Origin: a virus
Lineage: Duplodnaviria > Caudoviricetes
Length of the DNA stretch: 64,000 nt
Direction: 5' to 3' (one strand)
IMG/VR virus record: IMGVR_UViG_3300032226_000829
Shown piece by piece: positions 39,537 to 39,685 of this stretch; within the stretch, counting starts at the first letter, position 1; every line of letters begins with the position of its first letter. Below the pieces are notes generated by a model. It did not search any database and had not been told where the DNA came from. It saw nothing but the letters and a program-made list of their open reading frames with translations. Made by a program: the position numbers and the translations under genes.

Positions 39537-39685
39537 ATGATCCATAGCCGGGATTCTGTTCTATGCCGTCATCTGTCTCTGCGTCCTACCCACAGTGTGC
39601 CTGACCATTCACTGCCTACATGGACTCGCACTTGTCAGGAGTGTCCCGAACTTCCTCAGCATTATGGCTGCGACGGCTCGATCAT
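39537..39685 (-). ncRNA. rnpB: Minimal RNase P RNA (catalytic domain only, 149 nt)
   Basis: GAGGAAGUUCGGGA (CR-I), AGACAGAUG (CR-IV), ACAGAAUCCCGGCUA (CR-V); hand-paired P1, P2, P3, P4 with bulged U, P5, P6 pseudoknot, P15 with GGU loop, P16. Confidence 0.9.

What the first reader, a model, noticed from the sequence alone, without database searches (positions are those of the whole stretch)
39537..39685. Phage-encoded ultra-minimal RNase P ribozyme (149 nt, catalytic domain only)
Seen in sequence: read on the minus strand and numbered from 39685, the RNA folds by hand into the bacterial A-type core. P1 is AUGAUC(1-6)/GAUCAU(144-149); P2 GCCGUC(9-14)/GACGGC(116-121); P3 a 3-bp hairpin; P4 AG-U(bulge)-UCGGGA(34-42)/UCCCGGCU(133-140); P5 CACU(43-46)/AGUG(54-57); P6 a pseudoknot CCUGAC(47-52)/GUCAGG(81-86); P15 GUCC(61-64)/GGAC(100-103) with the L15 GGU; P16 GCAGUG(71-76)/CACUGU(89-94). 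Several helices differ from E. coli M1 RNA by compensatory changes (P5 CUCC/GGAG, P15 GGCC/GGCU there). P5 is closed by a 7-nt loop, so the whole S-domain (P7-P14) is gone, as are P18 and P19. CR-I has two A's instead of three. Established: typical bacterial RNase P RNAs are 350-400 nt, archaeal type T RNAs are the known S-domain-reduced form and are larger than this, and isolated C-domains can cleave pre-tRNA with the protein cofactor. Inference: a functional, stripped-down viral RNase P that borrows host RnpA (no rnpA in this window). I cannot confirm whether such a phage RNA is already published.
Basis: partly seen in the sequence, partly recalled or inferred. Interest (0 to 1): 0.97.

Follow-up and report, generated by a model that had tools for sequence, protein, structure and literature searches.

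The report
Phage 149-nt RNase P catalytic core
A freshwater T4-like phage carries, at the head of its tRNA gene cluster, a 149-base version of the tRNA-trimming ribozyme RNase P that keeps only the catalytic half. It is the smallest member I found of a large phage family that I could not find described in the literature.

Summary
On the minus strand, 39685->39537 encodes a 149-nt RNA with the bacterial type-A RNase P catalytic core: P1-P3, the P4 pseudoknot with a bulged U, P5, the P6 pseudoknot, P15/P16 with the GGU loop, and CR-I, CR-IV and CR-V. P5 closes on a 7-nt loop, so there is no S-domain, and there is no P18.

- **Family evidence.** Rfam's archaeal RNase P model aligns end to end (28 bits, E 2e-6, below gathering). 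I collected 17 further 149-nt copies from lake metagenomes, a sister clade of 152-168 nt in big phages, about 70 phage relatives of 184-261 nt, and full-length RF00010 phage RNase P RNAs with the same unusual CR-I and CR-V.
- **Covariation.** Every helix is supported, both pseudoknots included (99.7% and 98.8% of cells paired; 0 of 500 shuffles reach this).
- **One correction.** The bulged U is U37, not U36, so P4 has exactly the E. coli geometry.
- **Context.** A conserved extended -10 promoter ends 6 nt upstream, and a tRNA starts 2-4 nt downstream.
- **Not shown.** Catalysis and use of host RnpA are inferred. The host is unknown.
- **Prior record.** This scan noted larger relatives before on other DNA. 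I found no publication on them.

The parts
39692..39700 (-). Extended -10 promoter TGCTATAAT. Its hexamer TATAAT (39697-39692) ends 6 nt before RNA nucleotide 1.
   Evidence: Read directly. TGnTATAAT stands at the same distance in all 18 window-clade copies, even where the DNA further upstream is unrelated. The generic promoter scan misses it because there is no -35.
39537..39685 (-). 149-nt C-domain-only RNase P RNA
   Evidence: Rfam RF00373, end to end, 28.3 bits, E 1.7e-6. Own CMs R1 and R2. Covariation.
39680..39685 (-). P1 5' strand (nt 1-6). It pairs with 39537-39542 (nt 144-149).
   Evidence: Invariant in the window clade. Five of 6 pairs change on both sides in the sister clade.
39672..39677 (-). 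P2 5' strand (nt 9-14). It pairs with 39565-39570 (nt 116-121).
   Evidence: Four of 6 pairs change on both sides in each clade.
39657..39670 (-). P3 hairpin (nt 16-29): 4 bp with a 6-nt loop
   Evidence: Pair 17/28 occurs as A-U, G.U and G-C. P3 length varies in relatives.
39644..39657 (-). CR-I (GAGGAAGUUCGGGA, nt 29-42). It includes the P4 5' strand (nt 34-42) and the bulged U37 at 39649.
   Evidence: Pair 36/138 covaries as U.G, C-G and G-C, which places the bulge at U37. Pair 39/136 is G-C or A-U between clades. The full-length phage RNase P RNA in L094 carries the same 17-nt stretch GAGGAAGUUCGGGACAC, which is CR-I plus the first three P5 bases.
39629..39643 (-). P5 hairpin (nt 43-57). 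Its 7-nt loop takes the place of the whole S-domain. Loop nt 47-52 (39634-39639) form the P6 5' strand.
   Evidence: Pair 46/54 covaries. The stretch inside P5 is 7-8 nt here, against 41-102 nt in most larger relatives.
39626..39628 (-). J5/15 (C58 G59 A60), the counterpart of E. coli C247 A248 A249
   Evidence: A60 is invariant. Position 59 is G in 12 of 13 distinct window-clade sequences and A in L154 and in the sister clade. The E. coli numbering is from my own knowledge.
39583..39625 (-). P15/P16 arm (nt 61-103): P15 is 61-64/100-103, P16 is 71-76/89-94, the P6 3' strand is nt 81-86 (39600-39605), and the internal loop is AUGUAG / GGGUA with the GGU at nt 96-98.
   Evidence: Three of the 6 P6 pairs change on both sides in each clade. 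P15 64/100 is C-G or U-A. GGUA is invariant in both clades, but the search patterns required it.
39571..39578 (-). CR-IV (AGACAGAU, of the form AG-NNNN-AU), directly followed by the P2 3' strand. There is no P18.
   Evidence: The stretch between P15 and P2 is 12 nt in nearly all 72 relatives (9-12 nt). A108, G109, A114 and U115 are conserved although no search pattern required them.
39545..39559 (-). CR-V (ACAGAAUCCCGGCUA, nt 127-141), including the P4 3' strand (nt 133-140, 39546-39553)
   Evidence: The part after ACNGAA was not required by the metagenome pattern, yet it is conserved in all 52 real hits.
39208..39534 (-). The tRNAs that follow directly on the same strand: Leu-CAA (starts 2 nt after the RNA), Leu-GAG, Glu and Gly. 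Each encodes CCA. The spacers between them are 1-6 nt.
38532..38885 (-). Rest of the tRNA array (Pro, Val, Gln, Arg), with two further promoter-like sites and a T-run after the last tRNA

Best explanation
**Shown.**
- This is a phage gene for an RNase P RNA cut down to its catalytic domain. It descends from phage-borne full-length type-A RNase P RNAs by loss of P7-P14 and P18.
- It keeps the P4 active-site helix with its bulged U, CR-I, CR-IV and CR-V, J5/15, the P15 loop with GGU, and the P6 pseudoknot. P6 now forms between the P5 loop and the P16 loop.
- It is the first unit of a tRNA operon.

**Inferred.**
- Transcription starts at nucleotide 1, from the extended -10 promoter.
- The 3' end is released when RNase P cuts the 5' end of the adjacent tRNA-Leu.
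- The folded RNA then joins host RnpA, since no phage rnpA was found, and acts in trans as an extra RNase P.
- This raises the capacity to mature the phage's tightly packed tRNAs during infection.
- Substrate binding would rest on the GGU-to-RCCA pairing and on the protein's grip on the leader, not on the lost contact with the T-loop.
For: **Homology**
- An Rfam RNase P model aligns end to end.
- Full-length phage RNAs that pass RF00010 (158-168 bits) carry the same atypical CR-I and CR-V strings.

**Structure**
- All eight helices covary in two clades, P4 and P6 included.
- P4 has the E. coli geometry of 3 bp, a bulged U and 5 bp.

**Selection**
- All 18 copies are exactly 149 nt and 90-99% identical, while the upstream DNA is sometimes unrelated.
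- CR-IV is conserved although no search pattern required it.

**Context**
- The RNA is always on the tRNA strand, with a conserved promoter in front and a tRNA 2-4 nt behind. Sister-clade copies sit between tRNAs.
- 61 of 62 window-clade tRNAs encode CCA.
- The RNA is restricted to phages: the same pattern found nothing real in 185,579 species genomes.

**Plausibility**
- An engineered E. coli C-domain, also without P18 and with a mini-P3, cleaves substrates. It needs a 'P6-mimic', and C5 protein stimulates it about 190-fold (PMC5839562).

**Expression hint**
- Contigs of lake metatranscriptomes from four studies carry the RNA, and one ends at 39685.
Against: - No activity, protein partner or transcript ends have been measured.
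- The contigs from RNA libraries cannot prove transcription or ends, and some of them run on upstream.
- The engineered C-domain is about 100-fold slower than the full enzyme (PMC5839562).
- J5/15 has G where E. coli has A248 in 12 of 13 distinct window-clade sequences.
- Sister-clade tRNAs mostly lack an encoded CCA (5 of 70), so the CCA argument does not hold for the whole family.
- Conservation of CR-I, the GGU loop and ACNGAA is partly forced by the search patterns I used.
- The host, and therefore the RnpA, is unknown.
Confidence: 0.6

Rival explanations
1. A cis-acting or self-sufficient ribozyme. While still part of the primary transcript, the RNA cuts the tRNAs of its own operon, where local concentration makes up for the lost S-domain. 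Alternatively it works without RnpA, or with an unidentified phage protein.
For: - The RNA is always co-transcribed with tRNAs.
- No rnpA was found in the phage records searched.
- C-domain RNAs are active alone in vitro at high salt (PMC5839562).
Against: - The first tRNA starts only 2-4 nt after P1. I estimate that this is too short to reach the active site, which lies about 9 bp of stacked helix away (inference from geometry, not computed).
- No conserved neighbouring protein gene was found. The 90-aa ORF inside the array is not basic and is absent from L085.
- Activity without protein needs unphysiological salt.
Confidence: 0.15
2. A non-catalytic mimic. The RNA binds host RnpA or pre-tRNAs as a decoy or regulator, for example to divert RnpA from host RNase P, and does no cutting itself.
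For: - The regions I recall as the RnpA contact sites (P3, P15, CR-IV, CR-V) are kept.
- G59 stands in place of A248.
- An orthopoxvirus RNase P-like RNA was inactive in vitro (PMC3001073).
Against: - The phage's own tRNAs need RNase P, so blocking it would hurt the phage.
- Elements with no known role in protein binding are also kept and covary: the bulged U, the P4 geometry, the GGU loop and P6.
Confidence: 0.15
3. A structured leader or a decaying remnant of a phage rnpB gene. It would serve only to stabilise the tRNA transcript or to start it.
For: - It sits at the 5' end of the operon.
- The family shows a size series from about 360 down to 149 nt, which could be read as decay.
Against: - The length is fixed at 149 nt in 18 copies.
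- 99.7% of cells keep their pairing, with 10 compensated pairs.
- Changes avoid exactly the nucleotides that RNase P RNAs share.
- Sister-clade copies lie inside arrays, not at their head.
Confidence: 0.05

Closest known systems
Bacterial type-A RNase P RNA (Rfam RF00010; E. coli M1 RNA)
   Same: - Same order of P1, P2, P3, P4, P5, P6, P15 and P16.
- P4 has 3 bp, a bulged U and 5 bp.
- CR-I, CR-IV and CR-V are present.
- The P15 internal loop reads A..UAG/GGGUA.
- The 5' end is probably a primary transcript end.
   Different: - 149 nt against about 350-400 nt.
- No S-domain (P7-P14, CR-II, CR-III), no P18, a 6-bp P1 and a 4-bp P3.
- P4 pairs A67-U359 and G68-C358 are replaced by G-C and U.G.
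- It fails every Rfam gathering score.
- It is encoded by a phage, inside a tRNA operon.
Engineered E. coli C-domain RNAs (Eco CP RPR, delP18, delP18P3Mini; Mao et al. 2018, PMC5839562)
   Same: Nearly the same architecture: C-domain only, P6 ('P6-mimic') kept and important, P18 dispensable, P3 shortened.
   Different: Those are laboratory deletions of M1 RNA with about 100-fold lower activity. This one is natural, conserved and selected.
Archaeal type T RNase P RNA (Thermoproteaceae; Lai et al. 2010; PMC3579882)
   Same: A natural RNase P RNA with most of the S-domain lost, P18 absent, and P6 modelled as present.
   Different: - Type T keeps P7-P9 (and P10), has a 3-bp P2 and a 2-nt J5/15, and works with archaeal proteins.
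- This RNA has no P7-P10, a 6-bp P2 and a 3-nt J5/15, and its core sequence is of the bacterial type.
Yeast mitochondrial rnpB/RPM1 (down to about 150 nt in Saccharomycopsis fibuligera; PMC3790967)
   Same: Similar size. CR-I, CR-V, P4 and P1 are retained.
   Different: The mitochondrial RNAs are A/U-rich and keep little beyond P1 and P4. This RNA keeps P2, P3, P5, P6, P15, P16 and CR-IV.
Small stable RNAs in the T4 tRNA cluster (rnaC and rnaD, species 1 and 2)
   Same: Non-tRNA RNAs of 119-139 nt, co-transcribed with the tRNAs of a T4-like phage.
   Different: No similarity. The best CM score is 5.9 bits, E 0.16, with filters off, and the sequence has no CR motifs.
Orthopoxvirus RNase P-like RNA (camelpox; cited in PMC3001073)
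   Same: A virus-encoded RNA that resembles RNase P RNA.
   Different: That one has only loose structural similarity and was inactive. It belongs to a eukaryotic virus and has no tRNA context.

Membership tests
RNase P RNA, bacterial type A (RF00010) | P4 pseudoknot between CR-I and CR-V with a bulged U | tested here: met
   All 8 pairs pair in 100% of cells. Pair 36/138 covaries and fixes the bulge at U37. The sister clade pairs at 99.5%.
RNase P RNA, bacterial type A (RF00010) | CR-I, CR-IV and CR-V sequence signatures, in order | tested here: met
   GAGGAAGUUCGGGA, AG-NNNN-AU and ACAGAAUCCCGGCUA align with the Rfam consensus and with a full-length phage RF00010 RNA. CR-IV is conserved without being required by any pattern.
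RNase P RNA, bacterial type A (RF00010) | P15/P16 internal loop with GGU (binding site for the tRNA 3' RCCA) | tested here: met
   GGGUA at nt 95-99, with P15 and P16 covarying. Its function was not tested.
RNase P RNA, bacterial type A (RF00010) | P6 pseudoknot | tested here: met
   Six pairs, of which 3 change on both sides in each clade, 100% paired.
RNase P RNA, bacterial type A (RF00010) | Specificity domain (P7-P14 with CR-II and CR-III) | tested here: not met
   P5 closes on a 7-nt loop. 133 model positions are deleted.
RNase P RNA, bacterial type A (RF00010) | P18 | tested here: not met
   The stretch between P15 and P2 is 12 nt and consists mainly of CR-IV.
RNase P RNA, bacterial type A (RF00010) | Score at or above the Rfam gathering threshold | tested here: not met
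   No hit in gathering mode. The best hit in the clan is RF00373 at 28.3 bits against 84. The sister clade has no RNase P hit even at E <= 1.
RNase P RNA, bacterial type A (RF00010) | Endonucleolytic 5' maturation of pre-tRNA, stimulated by RnpA | not testable with these tools
   This needs biochemistry. No phage rnpA was found in related records.
Archaeal type T RNase P RNA | 3-bp P2, 2-nt J5/15 and retained P7-P9 (PMC3579882) | tested here: not met
   P2 has 6 bp, J5/15 has 3 nt, and nothing lies inside P5.
Phage mini RNase P RNAs (undescribed; 149-261 nt, in tRNA arrays) | End-to-end match to the family CM, no P18, a tRNA neighbour on the same strand | tested here: met
   - R2 matches 70 further viral loci of 184-261 nt plus a cultured phage, all with about 12 nt between P15 and P2.
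- tRNA context was checked for the window clade, six sister-clade loci and the cultured phage. It was not checked for the 70 loci of 184-261 nt.
T4 rnaC / rnaD stable RNAs | Sequence and structure similarity | tested here: not met
   Best score 5.9 bits, E 0.16, with filters off.

The most novel reading that the evidence does not exclude
The tRNA operon is self-processing. The 149-nt ribozyme at the head of the transcript cuts the tRNAs of its own transcript without any host RNase P RNA, and perhaps without RnpA. That would make it a natural cis-acting RNase P and the smallest self-sufficient one.
Probability: 0.12. Interest if true: 0.95.

Novelty: new variant of a known kind. Interest (0 to 1): 0.85.

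Why it matters
- **Minimal core.** RNase P RNA is one of the universal ribozymes, and how little of it suffices has been probed for decades with laboratory deletions. This is nature's own answer: a conserved 149-nt RNA with only P1-P6 and P15/P16, almost the same design as the engineered E. coli C-domain without P18.
- **Structure and mechanism.** If it is active, it is a small and tractable RNase P for structural and mechanistic work.
- **Phage biology.** It would show that phages with tRNA arrays also bring the enzyme that matures the tRNAs.
- **Annotation.** It exposes a gap: Rfam misses the whole family. One study that ran the full Rfam set on two megaphage genomes detected only tRNAs and a tmRNA (PMC8172020).
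- **Experimental access.** A 237-nt relative in a cultured Stenotrophomonas phage gives a way in.

Tried and rejected
- **Single-sequence MFE fold.** z -0.16 and a wrong fold, because P4 and P6 are pseudoknots. It says nothing either way.
- **blastn against GenBank phages.** No hit for the RNA with flanks or for a sister-clade copy. The only hit was a 34-nt match that led to phage DLP_6.
- **First pattern scan.** 76 of 82 hits were chance or coding. 7 of the 59 metagenome hits were chance, in GC-rich coding DNA.
- **Cultured relatives Melnitz and HTVC008M.** Neither carries the RNA.
- **Cellular genomes.** The pattern gave 4 matches in 185,579 species genomes. None is real by the CM and none lies near a tRNA.
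- **Host inference from the phage porin gene.** No close relative was found in genomes.
- **The 90-aa ORF inside the tRNA array as a protein cofactor.** It has no family, is not basic, and is absent from the near-identical L085.
- **T4 rnaC and rnaD as relatives.** Rejected.
- **Encoded CCA as a family-wide feature.** It holds in the window clade but not in the sister clade.
- **Reads.** Only assembled contigs of RNA libraries were available. Their depth and ends cannot establish transcript level or termini, and some contigs continue upstream of the promoter.
- **The Lai et al. 2010 type T paper.** It could not be opened.

Full report
**What is there.** Read on the minus strand, window 39685->39537 is a 149-nt stretch. 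It starts 6 nt after a TGCTATAAT extended -10 element and ends 2 nt before tRNA-Leu(CAA), the first of eight closely spaced tRNA genes on the same strand. At gathering thresholds Rfam reports only tRNAs in the window. In E-value mode on 401 nt, the archaeal RNase P model RF00373 aligns end to end (model 1-288). It deletes 133 model positions exactly where the S-domain sits, and scores 28.3 bits, E 1.7e-6, against a gathering score of 84. The MFE fold of the single sequence is no better than shuffles (z -0.16). That is expected for an RNA whose key helices are pseudoknots.

**Genome context.**
- The window is phage DNA. It encodes a DnaB-type helicase, DnaK, 2OG-Fe(II) oxygenases, a peroxiredoxin, a porin, SufE and a nitroreductase.
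- Its closest cultured relatives are the T4-like Methylophilales phage Melnitz (48% amino-acid identity over one protein) and Pelagibacter phage HTVC008M.
- No whole genome is held for the window.
- The stretch occurs in freshwater and lake metagenome runs.

**Homologues.** I scanned with patterns and confirmed hits with my own covariance models.
- *Window clade.* 18 copies, 13 of them distinct: the window, one viral contig (L085) and 16 metagenome loci. Every copy is exactly 149 nt.
- *Sister clade.* RNAs of 152-168 nt in contigs of up to 498 kb, each lying inside a tRNA array between tRNAs on the same strand.
- *Intermediate forms.* 70 further viral-contig loci of 184-261 nt match the model end to end. 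So does a 237-nt unannotated copy 12 nt upstream of tRNA-Arg in the cultured Stenotrophomonas phage vB_SmaS-DLP_6.
- *Full-length forms.* Phage RNase P RNAs that pass RF00010 (158-168 bits) carry the same unusual strings GAGGAAGUUCGGGACAC and ACAGAAUCCCGGCUA.
- *Where the size differences lie.* Across the 72 aligned relatives, the stretch between P15 and P2 is about 12 nt, so none has P18. Size varies inside P5 (the S-domain position, 41-102 nt in most), inside P16 and in P3. The window clade is minimal in all three.
- *Cellular genomes.* The same pattern found nothing real in one genome of each of 185,579 prokaryote species.

**Structure.**
- *Window clade (A5).* With the eight helices P1, P2, P3, P4, P5, P6, P15 and P16, 99.7% of 572 cells form standard pairs. 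Ten pairs change on both sides. None of 500 shuffles reaches these values, and sliding the partners by 1-3 columns drops pairing to 24-41%.
- *Sister clade (A6).* 98.8% of cells pair, 19 pairs and 150 cells change on both sides, 0 of 500 shuffles reach this, and slid controls give 29-42%.
- *P6.* In the window clade it reads CCUGAC/GUCAGG, CUUGGU/GCCAAG or CCUGGU/ACCAGG. In the sister clade it reads AUUUGG/CCAAAU, ACUUGA/UCAAGU or AAUGGG/CCCAUU.
P4 is then 3 bp, a bulged U and 5 bp. From my knowledge of M1 RNA, that is the E. coli arrangement (A66-G68, U69, C70-G74).
- *CR-I and CR-V.* On this alignment both have the canonical length. The 'missing A' is A67-U359 replaced by G35-C139.
- *CR-IV.* AGACAGAU fits AG-NNNN-AU, abuts the P2 3' strand as in E. 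coli, and is conserved although no search pattern required it.
- *P15 internal loop.* It reads AUGUAG/GGGUA. Some clade members read AAAUAG, as E. coli does.

**Caveat on conservation.** My patterns required parts of CR-I, the GGUA loop and ACNGAA, so invariance there is partly forced. The helices, CR-IV and the P4 3' strand were free to vary.

**Operon architecture.**
- All 18 window-clade copies have TGnTATAAT at the same distance upstream and a tRNA starting 2-4 nt downstream. The identity of that tRNA and the order of the array differ between copies.
- The DNA further upstream is either nearly identical to the window or unrelated (about 58% identity), while the RNA stays 90-99% identical. 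Promoter, RNA and tRNAs therefore behave as one module.
- All nine tRNAs in the window encode CCA, with spacers of 1-6 nt inside the arrays. Clade-wide the count is 61 of 62. In the sister clade only 5 of 70 tRNAs end in CCA.
- I infer that the 5' end is the transcription start, as I recall for M1 RNA, and that the 3' end is made when RNase P cuts the first tRNA.

**Protein partner.**
- PF00825 (RnpA) finds nothing in four related phage records, including a 364-kb record rated 94% complete, while it fires in 10 of 14 control genomes.
- A rough scan of the window's six frames finds no RNR-type motif.
- The 90-aa ORF inside the array is not basic and is missing from L085.

**Expression.** Contigs from four lake metatranscriptome studies cover the RNA. 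One 143-nt contig spans 39545-39685 and ends at the predicted 5' end. Others continue into an alternative downstream tRNA, or upstream of the promoter. One variant seen in these contigs is the U36-to-C change known from L085. Contigs cannot prove transcription or ends, so this is only a hint.

**Mechanism.**
- *Best explanation (0.6).* A trans-acting RNase P ribozyme that uses host RnpA and adds tRNA 5'-processing capacity for the phage's tRNA operons.
- *Strongest outside support.* Mao et al. 2018 (PMC5839562) showed that the E. coli C-domain alone cleaves substrates. It depends on a 'P6-mimic', loses nothing when P18 is deleted, tolerates a mini-P3, and is stimulated about 190-fold by C5 protein. 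It is about 100-fold slower than the full enzyme.
- *Rivals.* A cis-acting, protein-free or phage-protein-dependent ribozyme (0.15). A non-catalytic RnpA decoy (0.15). A structured leader or decaying remnant (0.05).

**Comparison with known RNAs and novelty.**
- *Known minimal forms.* Type T archaeal RNAs keep P7-P9 and have a 3-bp P2 (PMC3579882). The smallest yeast mitochondrial rnpB is about 150 nt but keeps little beyond P1 and P4 (PMC3790967). An orthopoxvirus RNase P-like RNA was inactive (PMC3001073). T4 rnaC and rnaD are unrelated.
- *Literature.* Seven searches found no paper on phage-encoded RNase P RNAs. The Melnitz paper does not mention RNase P. One study that ran Rfam on two megaphage genomes reported only tRNAs and a tmRNA.
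- *Earlier notes of this scan.* Larger relatives of about 195-236 nt had been noted on other DNA, and this same stretch had been noted as the leader of the first tRNA. Two notes on full-length phage RNase P RNAs with the variant CR-I gave me the lead.
- *Classification.* I class the finding as a new variant of a known kind: a phage-borne, C-domain-only class of RNase P RNA, of which this window holds the smallest form seen.

Noticed in passing
L162:1306-1542 (+) = KU682439.2, about 105778-106014: The cultured Stenotrophomonas phage vB_SmaS-DLP_6 has an unannotated 237-nt relative of this RNA, 12 nt upstream of tRNA-Arg(CCG) (R2: 57 bits, E 1e-12). Rfam sees no RNase P there, even at E <= 1.
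   Followed up: partly
L092:8540-8900, L094:7348-7705, L096:2738-3095: Full-length type-A RNase P RNAs (RF00010, 158-168 bits) in viral contigs of 83-360 kb, near tRNAs. They carry the same variant CR-I (GAGGAAGUUC) as the mini forms.
   Followed up: partly
L098:5484-5826; also L093, L095, L097: RNAs of about 300-340 nt next to tRNAs. CR-I and CR-V stand at full-length spacing, yet they fail RF00010. L098 matches RF00373 at only 27.8 bits. They are possibly divergent full-size phage RNase P RNAs.
   Followed up: partly
L168-L238 (70 viral-contig loci): Phage RNase P-like RNAs of 184-261 nt. None has P18. They differ in the size of an S-domain remnant inside P5 (mostly 41-102 nt), of the P16 arm (15-145 nt) and of P3.
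   Followed up: partly
window 35860-35930 (-): Rfam calls a tRNA here (42.7 bits) that ARAGORN does not report.
   Followed up: no
window 38932-39204 (-): A 90-aa ORF of no known family sits inside the tRNA array, between tRNA-Gly and tRNA-Pro. It is absent from the near-identical contig L085, where only 54 nt separate the flanking tRNAs.
   Followed up: partly
window 38615-38643 and 38899-38927 (-): Two TTGATT-17-TATACT promoter-like sites lie inside the tRNA array, and a T-run follows the last tRNA. The array may therefore be three transcription units.
   Followed up: no
window 39729-43290 (-): A run of host-like auxiliary genes lies just upstream of the RNA: a 1-Cys-type peroxiredoxin, a Gram-negative porin, a 2OG-Fe(II) oxygenase and SufE. 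The porin has no close relative in 185,579 species genomes.
   Followed up: partly
sister-clade loci L045, L082, L005, L026, L059, L113, L127, L152: Only 5 of 70 tRNAs in these big-phage arrays end in an encoded CCA, against 61 of 62 in the window clade. The GGU loop of the mini RNase P RNA is conserved in both.
   Followed up: partly
window 16403-18484 (+): A 693-aa adenylate/guanylate cyclase-like protein, shared with phages Melnitz (48% identity) and HTVC008M. In Melnitz it lies next to a curlin-repeat protein.
   Followed up: no
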